Shown here in pieces: positions 16,085 to 59,543 of a stretch of DNA of 64,000 nucleotides; the stretch's first letter is position 1; each line of letters opens with the position of its first letter. The notes under the pieces are model-generated. The model did no database searches, was not told the DNA's origin, and was given only the letters and a program-made list of their open reading frames with translations. A program made the position numbers and the translations under genes. Source of the DNA: Chloroflexota bacterium (GTDB lineage: Bacteria; Chloroflexota; Dehalococcoidia; Bin125); the NCBI GenBank assembly GCA_028873865.1, contig JAPPNI010000030.1, positions 85,268 to 149,267 of the forward strand. Reading direction: 5' to 3'.

Positions 16085-16891
16085 TCAGTCAGTTCGCAGT
16101 CCGAGCAGGCGGTCGAGTCCGATCACGAGATGATCGAGCGCGGGCGCGGCGCGAACGGCGCGAAGAATCTCGGGAATGAAGGATGCGCGGCTCATCGAGT
16201 CGTGGCGAATCGTCAACGTCTCATCGTTACCGCCGAAGACAATCACCTGGTGGGCTACCAGTCCGGGCAGGCGGACGGAGTGCAGTGACGCTCCACCGAG
16301 TTCGGCGCCGCGCGAGTCATAGCCGTCAAGGTTGTGGCGCTCGGCCTCCTTGCGGCTGAAGTCGCTGTCGCGGGCGGCACGCATCGATTGCGCTGTTGCA
16401 ACGGCGGTGCCGGACGGCGCGTCGACCTTGCCGTCGTGATGCTGCTCGATGATCTCGACCGAATCGAAGAGCGGCGCCGCGACGTTGGCCAGGTGCATCA
16501 TCAGCACCGCGCCGAGCGCAAAATTGGCTGCGATTACACCGCCCAGATTCGCCTCGTTGACGCGTCGCGCGGCATCGGCGACGACCTCGTCCGGGAGTCC
16601 ACTGGTACCAATGACCGGGCGAATGCCCGCCTCGACTGCAGCCGGAATGAGTTTGACGGTCCACTCTGCGTTGGAGAAGTCGACCACGACATCGGGCGAC
16701 CACGCGGCCAGCGAGTCAAGCGAGTTGCTCAGGGGCACAGCCCGGTCGCCAATCTCAACCGACGGTTCAGTGGACAAGCCGTCCAGCGCACCGATCAGTT
16801 CAAGATCGTCTGCGGCCTCGATCGCGGTCATGATTTGCCGGCCCATGTTGCCGGCGCCGCTCATCACCACTCGGATGCCGGGGCTGGCCAT
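16085..16891 (-). CDS. dapB: 4-hydroxy-tetrahydrodipicolinate reductase
   Basis: N-terminus IRVVMSGAGNMGRQIMTAIEAADDLELIGALD and the DapB C-terminal domain. Confidence 0.85.
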   Translation of the reverse strand: MASPGIRVVMSGAGNMGRQIMTAIEAADDLELIGALDGLSTEPSVEIGDRAVPLSNSLDSLAAWSPDVVVDFSNAEWTVKLIPAAVEAGIRPVIGTSGLPDEVVADAARRVNEANLGGVIAANFALGAVLMMHLANVAAPLFDSVEIIEQHHDGKVDAPSGTAVATAQSMRAARDSDFSRKEAERHNLDGYDSRGAELGGASLHSVRLPGLVAHQVIVFGGNDETLTIRHDSMSRASFIPEILRAVRAAPALDHLVIGLDRLLGLRTD

Positions 16892-16918
16892 GACTCACCT
16901 ACTCAACTACCGATTCGC

Positions 16919-19579
16919 TCACCGGCTGGGAGCGCCGAAGTCGCTGCGCGGCGGAGGGGGCGGGGGCGGGGGGCCATCGCCATCTGTCTCTTGACTCCGG
17001 CGAATGTTGACCCGTGAGAGGATGCCGCCACGGCGTCGTGGTGCGATATTCGTGTCGGGCTGGCGTTCTTCCTGTTCGCCGGCTTCGCCGCGCGGCGAGC
17101 GCTCGCCGCGTTGTCCGGAGCCCGGTTGGCCCGATCCGTCGCCTGACTGTTGGTTCGACTCCCCACTCTGCTGCGCAGCGCCGCGCCGTCGCCGTCGCCT
17201 CCGGCGGCGCGGTTGACCCTCCCGGGGCGGAGCAACGGCGGCTGAGCCGTCGTCGGCAGCGGCTGTGGCGAGCGGTGCCGGAGGTGCAGGCTCTGCCGCT
17301 TCCGGTTCGGGCGTCTCGACGGTTTCGGGCGGCTGTTCGGCGAGAGCTGCCTCCTCCACGTCGGGTTGCTCTGGTTCGTGCTGGACGCGAGGTCGGCGTT
17401 GGCGGGTCTCCCGTGCTTCACGGGGTTCTCGCTCGCGTCGCGGAGGACGCTCATCACGTCCGCGGCGCTCGCGCGGTTCTCGGGGACCGGAGTCGGCGTC
17501 GCCGTTGAGCAGCGCTTTGCGCGACGCATTGACGCGGCCGAGGTTGTCCACCTCAATCACGATGATCTGCATCTCGTCGCCGACGCTGACGACGTCCTCG
17601 ACCTTGTCGACTCGGTAGTCGGCCAGTTCGGAGATGTGAACCAGCGCGTCCTTGCCCGGGACCATCTCGACGAAGGCGCCGAAGGGCAGGATGCGGACCA
17701 CTTTGCCGGTGTAGATCTGGCCGGGTTCGATGTCGCGAGTCATTGCCGAGATGCGCTCGTAGGCGGCCTGGCCAGAAGCCTGGTCGACGGCGGTGATGAA
17801 CACCGCGCCGTCATCTTCGACCGAAATCTCCGCACCCGTGTCGTCCTGCAACGCGCGGATGTTGCGGCCGCCCGGGCCGATCAACTGGCCAATCTTGTCC
17901 TGCGGCACGTCGAGGCGCAGAATGCGCGGCGCGTGCGGCGACATCTGCTCACGCGGGGCCTCGATGCACTGGGTCATCACGTCCATGATTTCCAGTCGGG
18001 CGTCGCGAGCCTGGTCGAGTGCGCGGGTCAGGATCTCGAGGTCGATTCCTTTGACCTTCATGTCCATCTGCAGCGCCGTGACTCCGTCGCGTGAGCCGGC
18101 CACCTTGAAGTCCATGTCACCGAGGTGGTCTTCCATGCCGACGATGTCGGTCAGGATGGCGACTTCGTCCTCTTCCTTGATCAGGCCCATGGCTATTCCG
18201 GCGATCGGCGTCTTGATCGGCACACCGGCGTCCATCATCGAGAGCACGGAGGCGCAGACCGAGGCCATCGAGGTGGAGCCGTTGGACGCGAGCACCTCGG
18301 AGACAATTCGGATCGTGTAGGGGAACTCCTCGAACGGCGGCAGGATCGCCGCCATGGCACGCTCGCCGAGCATGCCGTGGCCGATGCTGCGCCGCGACGG
18401 GTTGCCGACCCGGCCGGTCTCGCCCGTGGAGAAGGGCGGGAAGTTGTAGTGATGCATGAAACGCTTCGAGTCCTCGGGCGTGAGGTCATCGAGGCGCTGG
18501 GCCATGCCCGACCCGGCCAGCGTCGTGAAGCTGAGCACCTGGGTTTCGCCGCGCTGGAAGAGCCCAGAGCCGTGGGTGCGCGGGACGAGGTCGACCTCGG
18601 CCGACAGCGGCCGCAGTTCGGCGTGCCCTCGACCATCAGGGCGAACCCCTTCGTCGAGGATGCTGCGGCGAACGATCCGTTTCTCCAGCGCGTCGAAAGC
18701 CTCGGCATGCGCCTCGGTGTCAGCGTCTTCGTCGAGACGGTCAAGCAACGACGCCTTGACAGCGGCGCGGCGGCTGTCGCGGTCCGCCTTGTCCTCGGCG
18801 CCCCGCAGCGCGGAGCGCAGGTCGTCGCCGTACTGTTTCTCGACTGCGGCGAAGATGTCGGCGTCGACGGCCTGCAGCGTGAAATCGCGCTTGGCCGGCG
18901 TCGCCTCGGCGGCGAGCGCCTCCTGCATTTCGCAGATCGTCGTGATCGCTTCCTGACCGATCGCCAGAGCTTCGACGAGCAGCGACTCAGGCACTTCGCC
19001 CGCTTCCGCCTCGACCATCGTGATGGCATCCTTGGTGCCGGCAACGACGAGGTTGAGGTCTGAGGCCTCGAGCTGGGCGAACGTCGGCTGCAGGACCAGT
19101 TCACCCTCGACATGTCCAATGCGCACCGAGGCGACCGGGCCGTCGAAGGGAATATCCGAGACGCAGAGCGCTGCCGATGCGGCAATCGTGCCCAGCGTGT
19201 CGGGAGGATTCTCCATATCGACCGAAAAGATCGTGATGATCAGCTGGGTGTCGTCGTTGTAGCCCTTGGGAAAGAGCGGTCGAATTGGCCGATCTGTCAG
19301 TCGCGCCGAGAGCACGGCGGCAGTCGTCGGGCGGCCTTCGCGCCGGAAAAACGATCCGGGAATCCGGCCGGCGGCGTAGAGCCGTTCCTCAAACTCGACT
19401 GAGAGCGGGAAGAAGTCGATCCCCGGCCTCGGCTTGGAGGCGGTGGCAGTCCCGAGCATCATGGTGTCGCCGTAGCGAACGGTGACCGCGCCACCGGCCT
19501 GATGTGCGAGCTTGCCGGTTTCGATCGTGAGGGTCCGTCCGGCGATTTCCTGCTGAACGGTTTGAGTGGTGATTTCCAT
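16919..19579 (-). CDS. pnp: polyribonucleotide nucleotidyltransferase (PNPase) with a ~210 aa C-terminal low-complexity R/E/P-rich tail ending PPPPPPPP
   Basis: RNase PH domains, KH and S1 domains are recognisable; the tail follows the S1 domain ([11 protein letters not shown]...); sits immediately downstream of rpsO. Confidence 0.92.
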
Positions 19580-19750: not shown

Positions 19751-20017
19751 CTAGCGCCGCAGACCCAGTTCGCTGACCAGCGTGGTGTAGCGGTTGACAT
19801 CCTCGCGGTTGAGGTAGCGAAGCTGCCGTCGCCGTTGACCGACGAGCTTCATCAGCGCACGACGGGTGTGGTAGTCGTGCCGATGCTCGCGCAAGTGGTC
19901 GGTCAGCCGCGAGATTCGCTGGGTCAGCTGCGCGATCTGGACCTCGGGGGAGCCAGTGTCGTTCTCGTGCTGACCGAACTTCGCCGCGATGGCGGCCTTC
20001 TCATCCTTGCTCAGCAT
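19751..20017 (-). CDS. rpsO: 30S ribosomal protein S15
   Basis: [69 protein letters not shown] is a full-length S15. Confidence 0.92.
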
Positions 20018-20228
20018 GTGTGCACCTGTCCACATGGGCCATCAGGCGATGTTGCGCGGCGGGGCTGCCCTGTCCCTGGCGAGTACCTGGTTCTTTCGAG
20101 TCTGCCGGCGGCTCTCCAAGCCGCCAACTCCCCACCGCTGCGCTGCGTGGTCGTCTCGTTGCCTAGACGTTACCAGACCGTGCCGCGTTGCAGATGTCAG
20201 TTCGGTCGCATATGCGACACTGGGCGGC

Positions 20229-20573
20229 ATGACCGTGCTGATGACTCATCCGATCATGATCGTCCGGGCGCGTCTGGACCCGACGGTGCTGCAAGAGTTC
20301 GAGGACTGGCATCGGCAGACCCATTTGCCACATGTGCTCGAAATCCCGGGCATCGTCTCGGCCTTTCGCGTGCGCGGGTCCGACCCAATCGCCGGAGCGC
20401 ATTTGATGGGTTACACATTTGAGGACGAGTCAGTCGTCCAGGCCGCCCTGTCTTCCGAGCAGGCTCAGGTGGCCCGGCGGGACTGGGACTTCTGGGCCGA
20501 CCAGGTCTACGAGCTATCGGTCGAGATCTATGCCCCGTTGGCGCCGCTGCCGATTTTTCAGCACCACAACTAG
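20229..20573 (+). CDS. hypothetical small protein (114 aa)
   Basis: The ORF fills a ~600 nt gap between rpsO and the FTR-like gene and is followed by a perfect hairpin; no recognisable domain. Confidence 0.4.
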   Translation: MTVLMTHPIMIVRARLDPTVLQEFEDWHRQTHLPHVLEIPGIVSAFRVRGSDPIAGAHLMGYTFEDESVVQAALSSEQAQVARRDWDFWADQVYELSVEIYAPLAPLPIFQHHN

Positions 20574-26083: not shown

Positions 26084-27493
26084 ATGGTCACCCGATCCGC
26101 CCGCTCTTTCGGCGACCCTCACTCGGATCACCGAGCCATCTGGCAGCGCACTTTGCAAATCCTCGGCGACTCGCTTGATCGCGAGACCTTCGAGACCTGG
26201 TTTGCCGACACGCACGCGATCGAGGTTCGTGGCGGCGTGCTGCATGTCGGTGTGCCGACCGTGATCAAGCTGGAAACGCTGCGCGGCAGCTACTACCCGC
26301 AGCTCGCCTCGGCGGTCCGTCAAGCCTCGGGCCGATCCATGGAGATTGAACTGCGCGTTGCCTCGCCGCCGGAACCGGTCACGCAAGCTCTCGATCTCCC
26401 CTCAGGCGACGAATCTCAGCCGTCCGCCGAGCGCGGCCAGCCAATCCAGCCGGCGCGCAGCCGTCCGTCCGTCCTCAATCAGGCAACGTTCGAGCGCTTT
26501 GTCGAAGGCACATCCAACCAGATCGCCGTCACCGCATCTCGCCGAGTCGCGTTCCATCCCGGCGAAGACACGAACCCACTGTTCATCTACTCCAACTCCG
26601 GCCTGGGCAAGACCCACCTGCTGCATGCCATCGCACACGTGACCATGCAGTCGCACTACACAGTGCTGGTCGACACGGAGTCTTATGTCCGCCAGTTCGT
26701 CAACAGCGTCGGCGCCGGCGAGCGCGCCGCCTTCCAGGAAAAGTATGAGTCCGCTGAAGTCCTGATCGTCGATGACGTGCAGAAGCTGGGCGGCAAAGTC
26801 CAGACCCAGGACGAGTTCTACAACGTCTTCAACGCGCTGCACCAGCGCGGCCGGCAGATTGTGATCGCCTCCGACCTGCCGCCCAGGTTGTTGACCGGCC
26901 TCAGCGAACGTCTCGTCACGAGATTCGAGGGCGGCTTGGTGGTGGAAATCAACCAGCCCGATGTCGAATTGCGAATGGCAATCCTGCAGCGCAAGATTCG
27001 CGACTGGGGCATGGTTGTTGACGAGCCGACGATTCAGATGATCGCTGAGCGCGGCGGGACGAACATCCGCTCCCTGCTCGGCGGCCTGCAGCGAGTGCGC
27101 GTCTTCGCCGAAAGCGAGCGATCGCTCGTTACGCCAGGCATCGTGATGCGGGCCTTGGCCGGGCATGCGCAGGAAGAAACGCGCAAGGCCAAACCCACCG
27201 TGGCAGAACTGATCGCAGCGGCCTCCGACATCACCGGCGTCGCACCCGAGTTGTTCACTGCCACTCGCAAGGATCGGCGAACGGCCAGGGCTCGCCAGTT
27301 GGTCATGTACCTGGCCTGCCAACACACCGACCTCTCACTCAACTCGATTGGCGAGGCACTGGGCGGACGCGACCACTCGACCGTTCTGCACGGACGCGAC
27401 AAGGTCGAGCGGCTGCTCGCCGACTCTAGCGACGCAGAAGCCCACTGGTGGATCCAGCAGATCTCTGAGATTCGCTCCCGCCTCCACCTCTAG
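26084..27493 (+). CDS. dnaA: chromosomal replication initiator protein DnaA
   Basis: AAA+ Walker A LFIYSNSGLGKTHLLHAIAH and a C-terminal domain IV (LVMYLACQHTDLSLNSIGEALGGRDHSTVLHGRDKVERL). Confidence 0.9.
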   Translation: MVTRSARSFGDPHSDHRAIWQRTLQILGDSLDRETFETWFADTHAIEVRGGVLHVGVPTVIKLETLRGSYYPQLASAVRQASGRSMEIELRVASPPEPVTQALDLPSGDESQPSAERGQPIQPARSRPSVLNQATFERFVEGTSNQIAVTASRRVAFHPGEDTNPLFIYSNSGLGKTHLLHAIAHVTMQSHYTVLVDTESYVRQFVNSVGAGERAAFQEKYESAEVLIVDDVQKLGGKVQTQDEFYNVFNALHQRGRQIVIASDLPPRLLTGLSERLVTRFEGGLVVEINQPDVELRMAILQRKIRDWGMVVDEPTIQMIAERGGTNIRSLLGGLQRVRVFAESERSLVTPGIVMRALAGHAQEETRKAKPTVAELIAAASDITGVAPELFTATRKDRRTARARQLVMYLACQHTDLSLNSIGEALGGRDHSTVLHGRDKVERLLADSSDAEAHWWIQQISEIRSRLHL

Positions 27494-27727: not shown

Positions 27728-29002
27728 ATGATCGATTCCGTCGAGATCGAGATCGAGGGCGGGGCCGGTGGCCGCGGAGCAGTGTCGTTTCGCCGCGAGA
27801 AATTCGTGCCTCGCGGCGGCCCTGACGGCGGCCGCGGCGGCCGCGGCGGAGACGTGGTCGTCCAAGCCAACAGCCAGCTGAACACCCTGCGGCGATACCG
27901 GCGGCAACGACGCTTCCGCGCCGAGCCAGGAACCAACGGTGGAACCAACCAGAAGCGCGGCAGGGCCGGCGCGACCATGGTCCTCGAGCTTCCCGTGGGC
28001 ACGATGGTTTCGCGGCTCCGTGGGCAGGAAGCCGAGCAACTGGTCGACCTGGAAGAGGACAAACAGTCGCTGGTTGTGGCCTGGGGTGGGCGTGGCGGCC
28101 AGGGCAACATGTACTTCCGCAGCGCCACTAACCAGACGCCTCGCGTTGCGCAGAGGGGCGAACCGGGCGAACGCTGCCGCCTGCGCTTCGAACTGCGGGT
28201 GCTGGCCGATGTCGGCATCGTGGGACTGCCGAACGCAGGCAAGTCATCGCTGCTCCGCCACCTGAGCGCCGCCCGCCCGAGAGTCGCCGACTACCCCTTC
28301 ACGACTCTGGAGCCGCATCTCGGCGTCGTCTCCGTCGGCTGGGGCGAGTTCGTAATGGCCGACCTGCCGGGCCTGATCGAGGGCGCCGCCGGCGGAGCGG
28401 GGCTCGGGCACGAGTTCCTCCGCCACACCTCCCGAACCAGACTGCTGGTCCACCTGATCGACGGCTCGCAGGACAATCCACGAGCCGCAAAAGCCCTGGT
28501 CGACCGCGAACTCGCCGGGTACTCGGCCGATTTGGCCGGGCGGCCACAGATCGTCGTCGTCAACAAGGTCGATCTCGAAGAAGTCGACGTCTTTCGCGAC
28601 GAGATCACTGCGCAATTCGGCGACCTGGAGTCGCCGCCGCTCTTCTGCTCCGCCGCGACCGGCGAAGGCGCCCAAACCTTGGTCGATGCATGCGCGTCGA
28701 TGCTGGAAGAACTTCGGCAGCAGGAGCCTCCGCGGACGACGGAGGTGCCCGTCGTCCGGCCCAGGCAGGACGGCCGGCGATTCGAAGTCGACGAGTTGGC
28801 CTCGGGGCTCTACCAGGTCCGGGGGGCATCGGTCGAGCGGTTTGTCTCGATGATGGATCTGGGCGAAGACGAGGCCCTGGCCGAGACCTACCGCTGGCTG
28901 GATCGTCGAGGCGTGGCCTCGGCCCTGCACCGCGCCGGCTGTCAGCCAGGCGACGTGGTCAGGATCGGTCGGTCGCGCATTACTTGGGAATGGGAGCGCT
29001 GA
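27728..29002 (+). CDS. obg: GTPase Obg
   Basis: Glycine-rich N-terminal Obg fold (GGRGGDV, GGAGGRG), a G domain (GLPNAGKSSLL) and a C-terminal OCT domain. Confidence 0.9.
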   Translation: MIDSVEIEIEGGAGGRGAVSFRREKFVPRGGPDGGRGGRGGDVVVQANSQLNTLRRYRRQRRFRAEPGTNGGTNQKRGRAGATMVLELPVGTMVSRLRGQEAEQLVDLEEDKQSLVVAWGGRGGQGNMYFRSATNQTPRVAQRGEPGERCRLRFELRVLADVGIVGLPNAGKSSLLRHLSAARPRVADYPFTTLEPHLGVVSVGWGEFVMADLPGLIEGAAGGAGLGHEFLRHTSRTRLLVHLIDGSQDNPRAAKALVDRELAGYSADLAGRPQIVVVNKVDLEEVDVFRDEITAQFGDLESPPLFCSAATGEGAQTLVDACASMLEELRQQEPPRTTEVPVVRPRQDGRRFEVDELASGLYQVRGASVERFVSMMDLGEDEALAETYRWLDRRGVASALHRAGCQPGDVVRIGRSRITWEWER

Positions 29003-29702: not shown

Positions 29703-33089
<3,387 letters not shown>

Positions 33090-41869: not shown

Positions 41870-44203
41870 TCAGCGCGGACTGATCGGCTGTGGAGGCGGC
41901 TCGCCAGCTGACTGCCTCGCTGTTAACCCCGCCACGATGCCGCTCTCGATCAACTCCTCGATCGCCGAGTCATCGAGGCACAACACCTCGTTGAGAATCT
42001 CGACCGTGTGCTCGCCCATCCGAGGCGCCGGTCGCAGACATGATGCGGGCCGCCGGCGCAGCCGCCAGGGGAATCCCTGATATTGACGAGTACCGCTATC
42101 GGGATGCGTCAGATACAGCCACCAATCCCGAGCCGCCAGGTGCGGATCCCGTAGATGGGTCAGGGTCGAATGGACAGCCGCCGCCGGCACACCGACCGCC
42201 TGCAGGCGGTGCTGCAGCGTCAGCGCGTTCCAGCTGCGAGTCCACTCGCTCAGGGCAGACTCCAACGCAACCTCATCGGCTTTGCGACCCCTCGCCGTCC
42301 GCCACTCGGGACGATCGATCCCGGCAACCTCTGCAAGCCGCAGCCAGGTTTCGTCGCCTCGAACCGAAATCGCGATCCACTCGTCGTTACCGTCGACGCC
42401 ATCGGCGCAGCGGAAGCACTCGTGTGGCGCCGCGTCTGGTATCCGATTCCCATCACGCGCCGGCATCTCCTGCCCCGCCGAGGCGGCCAGAAGATATTCG
42501 TCGATGTATGCGACCGCGGACTCAAACATCGAACCTTCGACATGTACGGCCGCGCGTCCCCGCTGCGCCTGCCACGCCGCCGCCAGGGCCGAGGCCGCCA
42601 TCTGCGCGCCGACGATCGGGTCGGCCTGCATCGTGCCCAGCATCACCGGCTTGTCGCCCCGGTAGCCAAGTAACAGATCCCAGCCCGCGTTGCCCTCGGT
42701 CGTGCCGCCGTTGGCGCGGAAGTTGTCGTATGGACCGCCGGTGCCGAAACCGGAGAAGGAGACCAGTGCGATATGCGGATTGACCTCGCGCATGTGCTCG
42801 TGGGTCAGCCGCAGGTTTTGCAGCACGCGCGGACGAAAGTTCTCCAGCACCACGTCAGCGCGAGCGATCAAATCGAGCGCCAACTTGCGTCCCTTGTCCG
42901 TATCGAGGGCAATCGAGATCGTTCGCTTGCCCCGATTGGCCATGTTGAAGTTGGGCCGCACATTCAGGGGATGCGCATCCGGTGAAGCGACCCGCATCGG
43001 ACCGCTCGCCTCGTAGCGCCAGAGATCAGGGCGCTTCGGCCCCTCCACCTTGATCACCTCTGCGCCCAGATCGCTGAGAAGTCCCGACGCGTACGGTCCC
43101 AGCCATGCATGGGTGAAGTCGACCACGCGCAAACCATCGAGCGGTCCCGTCGAACGTTCAGGTTGCCGCCGCTGCGCGAATCGGTCCGTGCGCTCCGCCT
43201 GCCCCTCAACTTCCGTGACACGCATCGCTCGGCCGGCTCCGGTGAGACCGTTGTTGTCGCGAAAGAAATCAATCGCCTTGAGCTGCGGATCCTCTAGCAG
43301 TTGCTGCGCCGAGCGGTGCATCGCCATCACCGAGCCCAGCTCCGACAGCTTCGCCCAGATCGTCGCCGCATCCAGCGACTCGACGATTGGCCGCACATAC
43401 TCCAGCGACGGTTCTCGTTCGGCAAAGCGTCCTTCACCTTCCAGCAGTTCACTTGGAGGTGGATCACAGCCGAAGGCGATCGGCGCATTGCGAAGCGTCT
43501 CCCTCGACCAGGGCGAGAGCGTGATGTAGCCGTCGGCCGTCTCCATCACCTCAGCCCAGCCTGGCGTCCCTCCGACTCGTAGCAGCGCCTCGCCCGAGAA
43601 CTCCGAACGCAGCGACATGATCAGGGTTGAGACAGCCTCGTGCGACGACAGCTCAATCCACTCGCCCCGGCCTGAGTGCAGACGCTCGAGCAGCGCCGCA
43701 AACGCCGCCACGGCGCCCAGGATGCCAATCGCCCGAGGAATGATCGCCGCTGGAGCGGCCAGCGGCTCCTGCGGCGCGACGCCATTCGTCCCGGCAAAGC
43801 CCGACAACGCCTGGATGATCAGGTCGTCGGACAAGTAGTCGGAGTACGGACCGTCGGTCCCAAACGGCGACGAGTGGACGACAATCAACTCCGGGAACTC
43901 GCCAGCGATGCCGTTCAGTTCCGCAAGCGGCGCGTCCGTCACGAACACATCCGCAGCGGAGAGCTTGGCGCGCCAGTCGCCCGATCCAGGTGACTTGCCG
44001 ACCATCAGCGACTCACGCAGCAACGAAACAGTCTCGCCGTCTCGTTCGATCGTCGGCGCGGCAACCTTCAAGCGCGAATCTTCGGCTTCGAAGACCGAGA
44101 CCCGCGCTCCCCAGCGCGCGAACTCAAGCGCGCATGCCGCCGCAGGTACGTCACGGCTGTACTCGACGACGCGGATGCCGCTCAGCAGATTGCCGTCCGA
44201 CAC
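41870..44203 (-). CDS. family III CoA-transferase (CaiB/BaiF), single-chain tandem fusion of two CoA-transferase domains
   Basis: Two consecutive CoA_transf_3 N-termini (GIRVVEYSRDVPAAACALEFARWGARV and LDGLRVVDFTHAWLGPYASGLLSDLGAEVIKVE); 777 aa against ~400 for a single domain. Confidence 0.8.
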   Translation of the reverse strand: MSDGNLLSGIRVVEYSRDVPAAACALEFARWGARVSVFEAEDSRLKVAAPTIERDGETVSLLRESLMVGKSPGSGDWRAKLSAADVFVTDAPLAELNGIAGEFPELIVVHSSPFGTDGPYSDYLSDDLIIQALSGFAGTNGVAPQEPLAAPAAIIPRAIGILGAVAAFAALLERLHSGRGEWIELSSHEAVSTLIMSLRSEFSGEALLRVGGTPGWAEVMETADGYITLSPWSRETLRNAPIAFGCDPPPSELLEGEGRFAEREPSLEYVRPIVESLDAATIWAKLSELGSVMAMHRSAQQLLEDPQLKAIDFFRDNNGLTGAGRAMRVTEVEGQAERTDRFAQRRQPERSTGPLDGLRVVDFTHAWLGPYASGLLSDLGAEVIKVEGPKRPDLWRYEASGPMRVASPDAHPLNVRPNFNMANRGKRTISIALDTDKGRKLALDLIARADVVLENFRPRVLQNLRLTHEHMREVNPHIALVSFSGFGTGGPYDNFRANGGTTEGNAGWDLLLGYRGDKPVMLGTMQADPIVGAQMAASALAAAWQAQRGRAAVHVEGSMFESAVAYIDEYLLAASAGQEMPARDGNRIPDAAPHECFRCADGVDGNDEWIAISVRGDETWLRLAEVAGIDRPEWRTARGRKADEVALESALSEWTRSWNALTLQHRLQAVGVPAAAVHSTLTHLRDPHLAARDWWLYLTHPDSGTRQYQGFPWRLRRRPASCLRPAPRMGEHTVEILNEVLCLDDSAIEELIESGIVAGLTARQSAGEPPPQPISPR

Positions 44204-55439: not shown

Positions 55440-57824
55440 ATGCTCAGCGATTATCGAATTCTCGATCTGACGGACGATCGCGGCCTGATCGGCGGAATGA
55501 TCCTGGCCGACCTCGGCGCCGATGTGATCGCGATCGAGCCTCCCGGCGGCAATGCCGCCCGCCAACGCGGCCCCTTCGCCGACGGCTCCAACCAGGGCGG
55601 TATCGAAGACTCCCTGACCTGGCAGTCCTACGCCCGAGGCAAGCGCTCGGTCGTCCTGGATCTGGAGTCCGACGACGGTCGCGCACAGTTCATTGAGCTC
55701 GCGCGCTCGGCCGACGCGGTCATCGAGTCGGCCGACGTCGGCGGCATGGATTCTCTCGGCCTCGGCTATGAGACGCTCTCTTCCGTCAACCCTGGCCTGG
55801 TCTACGTCGCCATCACCCCCTTTGGCTCCACCGGACCCAAGGCCGGCTGGGCCGCGACCGACATCACCGTCGCCGCCGCAGCCGGACCGATGATCCAGAG
55901 CGGCGACAAAGACCGACCGCCGCTCCGAGTCGGATTGCCGCAGACCGCCCTACACGCCGGCGCGGAGGCGGCGCTGGCCGTCCTCATGGCCCTGCACGAG
56001 CGCCAGCGTTCCGGACGTGGACAGTTCGTCGATGTCTCCGCCCAGGCCGCCTACGCCCAGGCGACGCAGTCCGGAATCGTTGCCGCTGCCAACAACTCCG
56101 GCCAGTTCACACGCTCAGCCGTCGGCGCAGCCCTCGGCCCACTTGAGATCCGGCTCTTCTGGCCCTGCAAGGATGGCCACGTCGCGATCACATATCTGTT
56201 TGGCGCGGCGATCGGCCCCTTCACCGACCGACTCATGCAGTACGCCCTCGAGGAGGGCTACTGCGACCAGGCCACCCGCGACAAGGACTGGCTCAACTAC
56301 ACCAACCTCATCCTCAGCGGACAGGAACCGATCAGCGAGTACCTCCGCTGCTGTGACGTGATCGGCGCGCTCTGCGCCGACAAGACCAAGGCCGAGCTGT
56401 TCCAGGTCGCGCAGGAGCGTCGCCTCCTCCTGGTCCCGGTTTCAACGATGGACGACCTCGATGAAAACGAGCACCTCGCCGCCCGCTCCTACTGGCGCGC
56501 AGTCGAGCGCGACGGTCAGACGGTTAAGTTTCCAGGACCGTTCGCCCGTCTCTCCGAGACGCCGATCCAGTACGGCCGCTCCGCGCCGATGCTCGGCGAA
56601 CACACCGATGAAGTCCTCGCCGAAACGCGTCCCGCAGCGAGTCTGCACGCCGCCAACGGCTCCGGCGACTCGGCGCCGACCGCCCCACCCCTCTCCGACC
56701 TCAACATGCTTGACCTGATGTGGGTCATGGCCGGACCGGCTGGGACGCGAGCGCTCTGCGACTTCGGCGTCAACACGGTGCGAATCGAATCCAGCACCCG
56801 GATCGACACCGCCCGCACCCTGCAGCCGTTCATCGACGACGAAGCCACCCAACCCGAGGGCTCGTCGATGTTCCACAACATGAACGCCGGCAAACGCATG
56901 ATCACCGTCGACCCGGCCAACCCCGAAGGCCGCAAACTGATCCTCGACCTCGTCCGCTGGGCCGACATCGTGACCGAGTCCTTCACGCCCCGCGCCATGC
57001 GCGGCTGGGATCTGACCTGGGACACCATCCACGAGGTCAACCCGCGCGCGATCATGATGTCCTCCTGCCTCATGGGACAGGATGGCCCCCTGGCCGAGTT
57101 CGCGGGCTTCGGTAATCTCGCCGCCGCCTTCGCCGGCTTCACCCCGCTCTGCGGCTGGCCCGACCGCTCGCCTGCCGGACCCTTCGGCGCATACACCGAC
57201 TACGTCGCCCCGCGCTTCGCCTCCGCCGCCCTCTTGGCCGCCCTCGACGAGCGCGACCGCACCGGACAAGGCCAGTACATCGACATCTCGCAGATGGAAG
57301 CCGCCATCCACTTCCTCACCCCAGCCTTCCTCCAGTACCGCCTCACCGGCGAGAAGTGGCTCGCCGACGGCAACAACGACCCCGACATGTCCCCCCACGG
57401 CGTCTTCCCCTCCCAGGGCGAAGATCAATGGGTCGCCATCGCCTGCCGAGACGACGCCGACCGCGCCGCCCTGGAATCCGTGCTCAACGGCCAGTCGTTG
57501 GAAGAATGGACCGCCGCCCGCTCGAACGAGGAAGCCATGAACGCGCTCCAGGCCGTCGGCGTGCCCGCCCACGCCGTCCAGGACTCCGCCGCCTGCTTCG
57601 CCGACCCCCAGCTCCAGCACCGCAACCACTTCGTCCAGCTCGCCCATCCGACGCAAGGACAGTCGGTCGTCGAGGGAGCCAGGATCGTCTTCGGCCGTAC
57701 CCCCGCCGGCCGACCCCAGGTCGCCCCGACCATGGGCGCCGACAACGACACCGTCCTCCGTGACCTCCTCGGCTACACCGACGAGCAGGTCATCGAGCTG
57801 GTAGCGTCTGGCGCGTTGCAGTAA
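55440..57824 (+). CDS. family III CoA-transferase (CaiB/BaiF), single-chain tandem fusion of two domains; paralogue of 41870..44203
   Basis: MLSDYRILDLTDDRGLIGGMILADLGADVIAIE and a second LNMLDLMWVMAGPAGTRALCDFGVNTVRIE CoA_transf_3 start; 794 aa. Confidence 0.8.
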   Translation: MLSDYRILDLTDDRGLIGGMILADLGADVIAIEPPGGNAARQRGPFADGSNQGGIEDSLTWQSYARGKRSVVLDLESDDGRAQFIELARSADAVIESADVGGMDSLGLGYETLSSVNPGLVYVAITPFGSTGPKAGWAATDITVAAAAGPMIQSGDKDRPPLRVGLPQTALHAGAEAALAVLMALHERQRSGRGQFVDVSAQAAYAQATQSGIVAAANNSGQFTRSAVGAALGPLEIRLFWPCKDGHVAITYLFGAAIGPFTDRLMQYALEEGYCDQATRDKDWLNYTNLILSGQEPISEYLRCCDVIGALCADKTKAELFQVAQERRLLLVPVSTMDDLDENEHLAARSYWRAVERDGQTVKFPGPFARLSETPIQYGRSAPMLGEHTDEVLAETRPAASLHAANGSGDSAPTAPPLSDLNMLDLMWVMAGPAGTRALCDFGVNTVRIESSTRIDTARTLQPFIDDEATQPEGSSMFHNMNAGKRMITVDPANPEGRKLILDLVRWADIVTESFTPRAMRGWDLTWDTIHEVNPRAIMMSSCLMGQDGPLAEFAGFGNLAAAFAGFTPLCGWPDRSPAGPFGAYTDYVAPRFASAALLAALDERDRTGQGQYIDISQMEAAIHFLTPAFLQYRLTGEKWLADGNNDPDMSPHGVFPSQGEDQWVAIACRDDADRAALESVLNGQSLEEWTAARSNEEAMNALQAVGVPAHAVQDSAACFADPQLQHRNHFVQLAHPTQGQSVVEGARIVFGRTPAGRPQVAPTMGADNDTVLRDLLGYTDEQVIELVASGALQ

Positions 57825-59380: not shown

Positions 59381-59457
59381 AACTGGCTGTGGGTCCTTAG
59401 CTCAGTTGGCCAGAGCAGCGGACTTTTAATCCGAAGGTCCTGGGTTCGAGTCCCAGA
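59381..59457 (+). tRNA. tRNA-Lys (anticodon UUU), genome-encoded CCA
   Basis: Folded by hand: 7-bp acceptor stem GGGTCCT/AGGACCC, D arm GCTC/GAGC, anticodon loop CTTTTAA, T arm CTGGG-TTCGAGT-CCCAG, discriminator A then CCA. Confidence 0.85.
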
Positions 59458-59543
59458 GGACCCACCACGTTCACCCAGGCCCAGACGATTCGGCGCGGTT
59501 AGGGCAGGGTCGTATGCTTGGCCGTCCGAACGTGAGAATCTAG

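What the first reader, a model, noticed from the sequence alone, without database searches (positions are those of the whole stretch)
16919..17560. PNPase with a ~210 aa intrinsically disordered R/E/P-rich tail ending in PPPPPPPP, encoded by a G-quadruplex-prone template
After the S1 domain the protein continues with RE/RR/PE-rich low complexity ([32 protein letters not shown]..., RRRRRRRRG) and terminates in eight prolines. Canonical PNPases stop within ~20 aa of S1. Such tails resemble RNase E/degradosome scaffolding segments. The + strand opposite (16945-16975) is gcggcggagggggcgggggcggggggcc, a strong G4 motif on the template strand of the gene.
Basis: seen in the sequence. Interest (0 to 1): 0.5.

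Follow-up and report, generated by a model that had tools for sequence, protein, structure and literature searches.

The report
PNPase with conserved disordered motif-bearing tail
An uncultured Dehalococcoidia bacterium's RNA-degrading enzyme PNPase carries a real, about 197-residue disordered tail with three short motifs as conserved as its catalytic core, which probably captures RNA and docks a partner, while the G-quadruplex-like DNA under it is only a side effect of proline codons.

Summary
The gene at 16919..19579 (-) is a genuine PNPase of 886 aa. Its core is aa 8-689. A tail of about 197 aa follows (aa 690-886, window 16922..17512).

- **Not a frameshift.** 81 of the 87 closest database relatives (58-100% core identity, Dehalococcoidia MAGs, including 2-3 Mb contigs) are 844-1028 aa long. 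73 of them keep the same ordered motifs.
- **Motif order.** A variable R/E/D/P-rich stretch, an acidic spacer, poly-Arg (7-11), a spacer, then a C-terminal module of about 50 aa: ERQPDSN..RRR..G.LSRV..RR..DG-polyPro(5-10)-R[S/P]DFGAP.
- **Selection.** dN/dS is 0-0.05 in the poly-Arg island and 0.05-0.08 in the C-module for six of seven comparisons. That matches the catalytic core (0.04-0.07). Spacers give 0.2-0.5.
- **Structure.** AlphaFold2 gives pLDDT 26-45 and no secondary structure across the tail.
- **Specificity.** A profile search of 1.84 billion representative proteins found the module only on PNPases of this clade.
- **G-run.** The run at 16950-16973 has the top G4Hunter score in the window (2.72) but lacks a fourth G3 tract. 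It is not conserved in relatives and is expected from eight Pro codons, so it is a by-product.
- **Correction.** The protein does not end in P8. RSDFGAPSR follows.

Function is inferred: an RNA-capturing, partner-docking scaffold analogous to the RNase E C-terminal domain. I rate it a new variant of a known kind.

The parts
16919..19579 (-). pnp gene: polyribonucleotide nucleotidyltransferase, 886 aa plus stop codon (16919-16921)
   Evidence: ORF. Pfam RNase_PH x2, PNPase, KH and S1. NCBIfam NF008805 at 962 bits (cut-off 471) covering aa 8-689. The active-site stretches [11 protein letters not shown] and [13 protein letters not shown] are visible in the translation.
17534..17728 (-). S1 RNA-binding domain (aa 618-682), the last folded domain
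   Evidence: Pfam PF00575, E 5.9e-15. AF2 pLDDT is 81-89 up to about aa 690. Coordinates.
16922..17512 (-). Intrinsically disordered C-terminal tail, aa 690-886 (197 aa). It has 37 basic and 36 acidic residues, and R, P, E, A and G make up 69%.
   Evidence: Composition and charge profile. AF2 pLDDT 26-45 with no helix or strand. No Pfam or PDB match. dN/dS 0.09-0.34 against seven relatives, with most differences at third codon positions.
17387..17488 (-). Arg/Glu/Pro-rich mixed-charge block (aa 698-731: [34 protein letters not shown]). Net positive. Length varies among relatives and it grows by tandem peptide repeats in some.
   Evidence: In relatives the stretch from S1 to poly-Arg spans 96-262 aa.
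17246..17386 (-). Acidic Ala/Pro/Glu-rich spacer (aa 732-778). Net charge per 15-aa window is -2 to -6.
   Evidence: Sliding charge profile. Poorly conserved: dN/dS of the N-terminal tail part is 0.10-0.48.
17180..17245 (-). Poly-Arg island (aa 779-800: [13 protein letters not shown]9-G). The R9 run itself is 17183..17209.
   Evidence: A poly-Arg run of 7-11 (median 9) is present in 73 clade members. dN/dS is 0-0.05 while pS is 0.54-0.71. Arg codons vary synonymously among relatives.
17072..17179 (-). Gln/Ser/Gly-rich variable spacer (aa 801-836)
   Evidence: The distance from poly-Arg to ERQP is 6-73 aa in relatives. dN/dS is 0.21-0.53.
16922..17071 (-). Conserved C-terminal module (aa 837-886): [34 protein letters not shown]8-RSDFGAPSR
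   Evidence: Alignment A1 of 29 diverse members shows invariant E2, Q4, P5, R20, P38, P41, R42, F45 and G46. Spacing is conserved: ERQP to polyPro 30-45 aa, and 7-12 aa after polyPro. dN/dS is 0.05-0.08 for six of seven comparisons and 0.22 for the most distant, L087. The module was found only on PNPases in 1.84e9 representatives and in metagenome loci.
16949..16972 (-). Eight consecutive Pro codons (CCC CCG CCC CCG CCC CCT CCG CCG), aa 870-877
   Evidence: A polyPro run of 5-10 (median 8) is conserved in the clade, with synonymous codon turnover.
16922..16948 (-). True C-terminus RSDFGAPSR (aa 878-886). The motif R-[S/P]-D-F-G-A-P is nearly invariant.
16945..16981 (+). G-rich run on the template strand (GGAGGGGGCGGGGGCGGGGGG), the complement of the Pro codons. 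It is the G4Hunter peak of the window.
   Evidence: G4Hunter 2.72, the top score of the window, with no canonical four-tract motif. Not conserved in relatives. Expected from Pro codon usage.

Best explanation
The region encodes a genuine C-terminal extension of PNPase that is intrinsically disordered. It is a lineage trait of a clade of uncultured Dehalococcoidia (Chloroflexota).

The tail is modular. Fast-evolving charged or polar spacers of variable length separate three short linear motifs that are held as tightly as the catalytic core:
- a run of about nine arginines;
- an ERQPDSN...RRR..G-LSRV..RR element;
- a C-terminal polyproline-R-[S/P]-DFGAP peptide.

Most likely mechanism (inferred, not shown):
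- PNPase is a trimer, so three flexible arms would hang off each enzyme.
- The Arg-rich segments would bind RNA electrostatically. That would raise local substrate concentration at the KH/S1 entry and allow multivalent RNA-protein networking.
- The PNPase-specific C-terminal module would act as a docking peptide for a protein partner or for the PNPase core itself.
- PNPase would thus carry in cis the kind of scaffold that RNase E supplies in Proteobacteria.

The G-rich template-strand run is a passive consequence of encoding eight prolines in a 65% GC genome.
For: Shown:
- The tail is present and collinear in relatives. 81 of the 87 nearest protein clusters are 844-1028 aa long, and 73 carry polyR, ERQP, polyP and DFGAP in order. 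These include contigs of 2.1-3.3 Mb and independent metagenomes.
- It is translated and under purifying selection. Third-position differences dominate. dN/dS is 0-0.05 (polyR island), 0.05-0.08 for six of seven comparisons and 0.22 for L087 (C-module), 0.04-0.07 for six of seven comparisons and 0.15 for L087 (core), and 0.2-0.5 (spacers).
- It is predicted disordered: pLDDT 26-45 and no secondary structure in AF2 with a 64-sequence alignment. Only 6% of tail residues across the clade are hydrophobic.
- It is a near-neutral polyampholyte with segregated charge blocks in the window's subclade (z = 2.5-3.7 against shuffles).
- The module is specific to PNPase. The HMMER profile search over 1.84e9 representatives gave only PNPase fragments plus one unrelated repeat protein. 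All six metagenome loci whose upstream sequence is available place it at the end of a PNPase ORF; the seventh is cut at its contig end.
- PNPase is the only one of about 55 genes in the window with a long low-hydrophobicity segment.
- Basic G/R/P-rich tails of 43-137 aa are the rule in other Chloroflexota PNPases, against a median of 14 aa in 53 other bacteria, mostly Bacillota. That argues for a phylum-wide RNA-related role of a basic tail.

Precedent from the literature:
- Disordered RNase E C-terminal domains assemble degradosomes through short linear motifs (PMC11964227, PMC4435900).
- An oligo-Arg nonapeptide, RRRRRRSSA, of cyanobacterial RNase E is a PNPase-binding motif (PMC3964918).
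Against: - No binding, localisation or activity data exist. The organisms are uncultured.
- AF2 gave no confident docking of any tail motif onto the core, and no pre-formed helix or strand. That model was a monomer built from a shallow alignment.
- No partner could be nominated. Gene neighbourhood (rpsO-pnp-dapB-asd-dapA) is uninformative.
- Whole genomes could not be searched for RNase E, J or Y.
- Charge blockiness is not conserved in the more distant clade members (z down to -2.9), so a condensate-type mechanism based on charge patterning is not a clade-wide property.
- There is no membrane-targeting amphipathic helix as in E. coli RNase E.
Confidence: 0.6

Rival explanations
1. Self-interaction or autoregulation. 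The R9 run and/or the C-terminal polyPro-DFGAP module bind PNPase's own core or KH/S1 ring, in cis or between trimers. They would gate RNA entry or drive higher-order self-assembly rather than recruit a different protein.
For: The module occurs on no other protein family. That fits a motif co-evolving with a surface of the same protein. An oligo-Arg peptide of cyanobacterial RNase E binds PNPase directly (PMC3964918), so PNPase surfaces can recognise such peptides.
Against: The AF2 full-length model places no tail segment on the core with confidence; pLDDT is below 50 throughout 694-886 apart from single residues. The monomer model and shallow alignment make this weak evidence. No clade-specific core surface was identified.
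Confidence: 0.25
2. The polyproline run is mainly a translational control element. Eight prolines stall ribosomes unless EF-P is active, so completion of PNPase would be coupled to EF-P status.
For: A polyPro run of 5-10 is conserved at the amino-acid level in 70 or more relatives. It is established knowledge that runs of three or more Pro require EF-P for efficient translation.
Against: The prolines sit inside a larger conserved peptide (DG-Pn-R[S/P]DFGAP) whose non-proline residues are equally invariant. That points to a function of the finished peptide. The stall site is at least 40 nt from the dapB ribosome-binding region, judged by reading the sequence, so it would not mask it.
Confidence: 0.1
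3. The G-rich template strand forms a functional G-quadruplex that regulates pnp or dapB transcription or replication.
For: Highest G4Hunter score in the window, 2.72 at 16945-16981. It lies on the template strand, 28 nt upstream of the pnp stop.
Against: It has only three G>=3 tracts and no canonical motif. Relatives encode the same prolines with CCG, CCT or CCA: scores are -1.24 to -2.6, and the closest relative has a longest G-run of 3. Random Pro codon choice gives at least 2.0 in 64-74% of simulations.
Confidence: 0.03
4. Artefact or junk: a frameshifted or mis-assembled 3' end, or a neutral low-complexity expansion without function.
For: A few database entries of the clade are frameshifted or split within the tail (P0028, P0045, P0072, P0081, P0083; orphan ORFs P0121 and P0122). 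This DNA is therefore error-prone. The spacers evolve fast and change length.
Against: 73 independent sequences share the frame and the motif order. dN/dS in the islands equals that of the catalytic core. The extreme C-terminal peptide is conserved down to 58% core identity.
Confidence: 0.02

Closest known systems
C-terminal scaffolding domain of RNase E (E. coli, Caulobacter, Pseudomonas; RNA degradosome and BR-bodies)
   Same: A long intrinsically disordered region attached to an RNA-decay enzyme. It has Arg-rich segments and short conserved microdomains (SLiMs) separated by fast-evolving spacers. The charge-block pattern in the window's subclade also matches (literature).
   Different: It is attached to PNPase, not to an RNase E/G catalytic domain. 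There is no sequence similarity and no membrane-targeting helix. No partner is known. Here the enzyme that is normally the client carries the scaffold.
Cyanobacterial RNase E C-terminal nonapeptide RRRRRRSSA
   Same: An oligo-arginine run embedded in a disordered tail of an RNA-decay enzyme and conserved across a phylum. It links RNase E to PNPase (PMC3964918).
   Different: There the motif sits on RNase E and binds PNPase. Here R7-11 is internal to PNPase's own tail and is followed by about 85 more residues. Binding was not tested.
Canonical bacterial PNPase (E. coli Pnp, B. subtilis PnpA, Streptomyces GPSI)
   Same: The core is the same: RNase PH, alpha domain, RNase PH, KH and S1, with intact catalytic motifs. 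The gene also sits downstream of rpsO.
   Different: Canonical enzymes end 8-54 aa after the S1 anchor, median 14. This one continues for about 197 aa, and relatives reach about 340.
Basic or RGG-type C-terminal extensions of bacterial RNA enzymes (DEAD-box helicases such as RhlE, the RNase R tail) and of other Chloroflexota PNPases
   Same: Arg- and Gly-rich disordered tails that are thought to add non-specific RNA affinity. Other Chloroflexota PNPases carry 43-137 aa G/R/P tails. The comparison with helicases and RNase R rests on my own knowledge.
   Different: This tail is a near-neutral polyampholyte, not simply basic. It also contains deeply conserved non-basic motifs (ERQPD, polyPro-RxDFGAP) that such tails lack.

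Membership tests
Polyribonucleotide nucleotidyltransferase (PNPase; NCBIfam NF008805 / TIGR03591) | Full-length match to the equivalog model above the curated cut-off | tested here: met
   NF008805 at 962 bits (cut-off 471) and TIGR03591 at 955 bits (cut-off 525), covering aa 8-689.
Polyribonucleotide nucleotidyltransferase (PNPase; NCBIfam NF008805 / TIGR03591) | Domain order RNase PH, alpha-helical PNPase domain, RNase PH, KH, S1 | tested here: met
   Pfam PF01138 x2, PF03725, PF03726, PF00013 (554-611) and PF00575 (618-682).
Polyribonucleotide nucleotidyltransferase (PNPase; NCBIfam NF008805 / TIGR03591) | Catalytic motifs of the second RNase PH domain: phosphate-binding S/T-S-M and metal-binding DHLGDMDFK | tested here: met
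   [11 protein letters not shown] and [13 protein letters not shown] are present in the translation and invariant in alignment A2. The residue roles come from established knowledge of E. coli PNPase.
RNase E-type degradosome scaffold (disordered C-terminal domain with SLiMs) | Long intrinsically disordered region | tested here: met
   AF2 pLDDT 26-45 with no secondary structure over 694-886. Only 6% of tail residues across the clade are hydrophobic.
RNase E-type degradosome scaffold (disordered C-terminal domain with SLiMs) | Short conserved microdomains embedded in variable spacers | tested here: met
   Three islands with dN/dS 0-0.08 for six of seven relatives, against 0.2-0.5 for spacers. 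Alignment A1 and spacing statistics.
RNase E-type degradosome scaffold (disordered C-terminal domain with SLiMs) | Fused to an RNase E/G catalytic domain | tested here: not met
   The tail is fused to PNPase. It is therefore analogous to this family, not a member.
RNase E-type degradosome scaffold (disordered C-terminal domain with SLiMs) | Membrane-targeting amphipathic helix | tested here: not met
   No helix is predicted in the tail. The only hydrophobic cluster, [11 protein letters not shown], is short and highly basic.
RNase E-type degradosome scaffold (disordered C-terminal domain with SLiMs) | Microdomains bind defined partners (helicase, enolase, PNPase) and RNA | not testable with these tools
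   Requires pull-down, ITC or AF-Multimer against the proteome.
Condensate-forming (BR-body-like) disordered region | Segregated blocks of opposite charge conserved across homologues | tested here: inconclusive
   Blockiness is z = 2.5-3.7 against shuffles in the window's subclade. It falls to -0.3 to -2.9 in distant members with DRPRD-type repeats. The median is 2.7, and 34% of tails exceed 3.
DNA G-quadruplex motif | Four tracts of at least 3 G separated by loops of 1-7 nt | tested here: not met
   Three tracts only (G5, G5, G6), and the regex finds 0 matches on the G strand of the window. The G4Hunter score is nonetheless 2.72.
DNA G-quadruplex motif | Conservation of the G-tracts beyond what coding requires, as expected if functional | tested here: not met
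   Relatives use CCG, CCT or CCA for the same prolines. The longest G-run is 3 in L084, L085, L020 and L002. Simulation.
EF-P-dependent polyproline stalling motif | At least three consecutive prolines | tested here: met
   P8 at aa 870-877. The clade range is 5-10. Actual stalling is not testable here.

The most novel reading that the evidence does not exclude
In this Dehalococcoidia clade PNPase itself has become the organising centre of RNA decay. Its three disordered arms per trimer would capture RNA through R9 and RE-rich segments. The PNPase-exclusive ERQPD...polyPro-RxDFGAP peptide would recruit a so-far unknown partner, such as an endoribonuclease, helicase or ribosome. The result would be a PNPase-scaffolded degradosome or condensate that replaces the RNase E C-terminal-domain paradigm.
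Probability: 0.2. Interest if true: 0.75.

Novelty: new variant of a known kind. Interest (0 to 1): 0.48.

Why it matters
The five-domain architecture of PNPase is one of the most invariant in RNA metabolism. Bacterial RNA-decay scaffolds and condensates are so far understood almost entirely through the disordered tail of RNase E.

A PNPase that carries its own tail would be a second, independent solution to the same organisational problem. This tail is 170-340 aa long and bears motifs held as tightly as the active site. It occurs in a phylum where RNA decay has not been studied.

The three motifs (R9, the ERQPD..LSRV..RR element and polyPro-RxDFGAP) give well-defined handles. They can be used for pull-downs, peptide-binding assays and structure prediction against the complete MAG proteomes.

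The result also has a practical side for annotation:
- Some database entries are frameshifted or split within this GC-rich low-complexity stretch.
- G4 predictors will flag the antisense strand of any polyproline run in a high-GC genome.

Tried and rejected
1. **Word-indexed search with the C-module alignment.** It returned only two short orphan ORFs, P0121 and P0122. These are split PNPase tails, and the known PNPases were missed, so the result says nothing about distribution. I replaced it with the exhaustive HMMER search and the metagenome scan.
2. **A motif shared with other proteins as a localisation or sorting tag.** Rejected. There are no non-PNPase carriers. No other real gene in the window carries R6, P5 or DFGAP motifs.
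3. **Intramolecular docking by AF2.** No confident contact was seen. This is inconclusive rather than negative.
4. **Similarity of the tail to known families or structures.** No Pfam hit in the tail. PDB hits have E >= 0.47.
5. **DNA tandem repeats in the tail.** Only the trivial 6-nt periodicities of the Pro and Arg runs appear.
6. **RNA elements or terminators.** Rfam finds only a distant tRNA. No terminator or promoter signal is associated with the tail.
7. **An overlapping or antisense gene in the long + strand ORFs (17014..17508 and others).** Rejected because substitutions follow the pnp frame.
8. **Literature.** Six searches found no description of a long PNPase tail in Chloroflexota. 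The search on RNase E/J/Y distribution in Chloroflexi returned nothing.
Full report
**What is there**

The - strand ORF 16919..19579 encodes an 886-aa protein.
- Pfam finds two RNase PH modules, the PNPase alpha domain, KH (554-611) and S1 (618-682).
- The NCBIfam PNPase equivalog models match aa 8-689 at 955-962 bits, about twice their cut-offs.
- The gene lies in the usual place downstream of rpsO (19751..20035). dapB, asd and dapA follow it.
- Beyond aa 689 the protein continues for 197 residues (window 16922..17512). No Pfam model and no PDB sequence matches them.
- This tail is 19% Arg, 16% Pro, 13% Glu, 11% Ala and 10% Gly. It has 37 basic and 36 acidic residues.

After the eight prolines (16949..16972) come nine further residues, RSDFGAPSR, before the stop at 16919-16921.

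**Is the tail real?**

The refuting scenario was a frameshift or a tail absent from relatives. It fails on four counts.
- Of the 87 most similar protein clusters in the 5.8-billion-sequence collection (58-100% identity over the core), 81 are 844-1028 aa long. Many come from contigs of 2.1-3.3 Mb. Those labelled are Chloroflexi or Dehalococcoidia MAGs.
- The window itself is ENA metagenome scaffold ROBB21-1_SAMN13943215_METAG-scaffold_456.
- 73 of these proteins carry the same motifs in the same order. The exceptions read like frameshifted or truncated entries.
- Codon-level comparison of the window gene with seven relatives shows differences concentrated at third positions of the pnp frame throughout the tail. 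Against L084 the counts at positions 1, 2 and 3 are 28, 10 and 98. That also excludes the long + strand ORFs as genes.

**Anatomy**

The tail is modular.

| Part | Residues | Description |
|---|---|---|
| 1 | aa 698-731 | Net-basic Arg/Glu/Pro block. In relatives it varies in length and sometimes expands as tandem peptide repeats. |
| 2 | aa 732-778 | Acidic Ala/Pro/Glu spacer. |
| 3 | aa 779-800 | [12 protein letters not shown] followed by nine arginines. |
| 4 | aa 801-836 | Gln/Ser/Gly spacer. |
| 5 | aa 837-886 | C-terminal module [34 protein letters not shown]8-RSDFGAPSR. |

Spacing across 70 relatives in which all four anchors were found:

| Measure | Range | Median |
|---|---|---|
| Poly-Arg run | 7-11 residues | 9 |
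| PolyPro run | 5-10 residues | 8 |
| ERQP to polyPro | 30-45 aa | 33 |
| After polyPro to the C-terminus | 7-12 aa | 9 |
| S1 to poly-Arg | 96-262 aa | 130 |
| Poly-Arg to ERQP | 6-73 aa | 35.5 |

In a 29-sequence alignment of the module, E2, Q4, P5, R20, P38, P41, R42, F45 and G46 are invariant.

Pairwise dN/dS by region:

| Region | dN/dS |
|---|---|
| Poly-Arg island | 0-0.05 |
| C-terminal module | 0.05-0.08 for six comparisons; 0.22 for the most distant, L087 |
| Catalytic core | 0.04-0.07 for six comparisons; 0.15 for L087 |
| Spacers | 0.2-0.5 |

Synonymous sites are close to saturation (pS 0.36-0.76), so the ratios are approximate. The contrast between islands and spacers is large and consistent.

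**Disorder**

- AlphaFold2 on the full-length protein with a 64-sequence alignment of the clade gives pLDDT 81-89 for KH/S1. It gives 26-45 with no helix or strand for residues 694-886.
- Hydrophobic residues make up 6% of tail residues across the clade.
- In the window's subclade the charges are more segregated than in shuffled sequences (z = 2.5-3.7). In distant members with well-mixed DRPRD-type repeats they are not (z down to -2.9).
- What is conserved clade-wide is therefore the three motifs, not the charge pattern.

**Specificity**

- A profile of the C-terminal module was searched with HMMER against 1.84 billion representative proteins. It gave four hits. Three are PNPase fragments of this clade and one is an unrelated proline-repeat protein.
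- A scan of JGI metagenome contigs gave seven loci. In the six with upstream sequence available, the module closes a PNPase ORF.
- Among about 55 likely genes in the window, PNPase is the only one with a long low-hydrophobicity stretch.
- The tail is thus not a genome-wide habit, and the module is not a tag shared among proteins.

**Phylogenetic context**

- 53 non-Chloroflexota PNPases fetched here (mostly Bacillota) end a median of 14 aa after the S1 anchor, range 8-54.
- Other Chloroflexota PNPases carry 43-137 aa Gly/Arg/Pro-rich tails. Several end in Pro-rich plus aromatic peptides.
- The clade studied here has the longest and most elaborate version, at 164-340 aa.

**The G-quadruplex claim**

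- The + strand 16950-16973 (GGAGGGGGCGGGGGCGGGGGG) is the template strand and gives the window's top G4Hunter score, 2.72. It has only three G>=3 tracts and fails the canonical four-tract pattern.
- It is exactly the complement of the codons CCC CCG CCC CCG CCC CCT CCG CCG.
- Nine relatives encode the same prolines with other synonymous mixes. The closest one (L084) uses CCG and CCT only, with a longest antisense G-run of 3 and a score of -1.24.
- Drawing eight Pro codons from this gene's own usage gives a score of at least 2.72 in 15-24% of trials and at least 2.0 in 64-74%.
- Selection acts on the prolines. The G-run is a by-product.
- The Arg run is likewise encoded by mixed, freely varying CGN codons.

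**How it most likely works (inference)**

- PNPase is a trimer (established knowledge), so the enzyme would display three flexible arms of about 200 residues next to the KH/S1 RNA entry.
- Arg-rich segments in disordered tails are the RNA-binding elements of RNase E (AR1/AR2). Disordered RNase E C-terminal domains organise degradosomes through short linear motifs (PMC4435900, PMC11964227). They also form condensates that stimulate PNPase (PMC10412687).
- In cyanobacteria an RRRRRRSSA peptide at the RNase E C-terminus binds PNPase (PMC3964918).
- By analogy, I propose that the RE-rich block, R9 and the RRR..RR element capture RNA and give multivalency.
- I propose that the strictly conserved, PNPase-exclusive C-terminal peptide is a docking site: a polyproline-II rod presenting R-x-D-F-G-A-P. 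It would bind either a partner enzyme or the PNPase core.
- The main rival is the self-interaction or autoregulatory version. An EF-P-dependent translational pause at P8 may be an added property.
- None of these binding steps is shown. AF2 gave no confident contact, and no partner can be named from gene context.

**Comparison with known systems, and novelty**

- The protein is a member of the PNPase family. All defining features tested were met.
- The tail works like, but is not a member of, the RNase E scaffold class. It sits on a different enzyme, has no sequence similarity to that class, and lacks a membrane-targeting helix.
- I found no publication describing it in six literature searches.
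- I therefore rate it a new variant of a known kind. Interest is moderate: a clear, well-conserved and experimentally tractable departure from an otherwise invariant architecture, with function still inferred.

**Limits**

- Whole genomes of the clade could not be searched for RNase E, J or Y or for candidate partners.
- The representative library is clustered at 50% identity, so a rare second carrier of the module could be hidden behind a representative that lacks it.
- dN/dS values are pairwise and near synonymous saturation.

Noticed in passing
window 26084..27493 (+), 27728..29002 (+), 30370..32439 (-): dnaA, obg and gyrB lie 6-13 kb from pnp, so the window probably sits next to the chromosomal replication origin. 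DnaA and Obg come from the precomputed Pfam hits on L081. GyrB was confirmed by Pfam.
   Followed up: partly
proteins P0088-P0093 (845-846 aa): Another Chloroflexota PNPase lineage has a duplicated S1 domain. The two copies are joined and followed by RGG-type linkers (extra Pfam PF23459) instead of the long tail. This is a different route to extra RNA-binding capacity at the same C-terminus.
   Followed up: no
loci L003, L006, L028, L030, L038, L054 and proteins P0092-P0120: Nearly all other Chloroflexota PNPases carry 43-137 aa Gly/Arg/Pro-rich tails. Several end in Pro-rich plus aromatic peptides (GPPGPPRPPF.., RRPP[F/Y]RPSR..PDRRW). These may be older, simpler relatives of the polyPro-RxDFGAP ending.
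   Followed up: partly
proteins P0028, P0045, P0072, P0081, P0083, P0121, P0122: Several database entries of the clade are frameshifted, truncated or split into orphan ORFs inside the tail-coding DNA. This GC-rich low-complexity stretch is error-prone in assemblies and gene calls.
   Followed up: partly
proteins P0075, P0077, P0084, P0085: The N-terminal part of the tail expands through tandem peptide repeats in some relatives. Examples are DRPRDADRDADRN repeated about 16 times in P0085 (1028 aa) and PRARDEER(R/S)(S/T)E(A/T) repeated about 8 times in P0084.
   Followed up: no
window 20229..20573 (+): A 114-aa ORF with no Pfam match lies divergent from rpsO. It is conserved in position in all related loci examined (105-114 aa).
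   Followed up: partly
window 16850..17600: The tail-coding DNA stands out in composition. GC is 0.70-0.73 against a window mean of 0.65, and AT skew on the + strand is strongly negative (-0.27 to -0.48). This reflects the CGN, GAR and CCN codons.
   Followed up: no
window 41870..44203 (-), 55440..57824 (+); 59391..59464 (+): Two large proteins each contain two CoA-transferase family III stretches. The window's only Rfam match is a tRNA.
   Followed up: no
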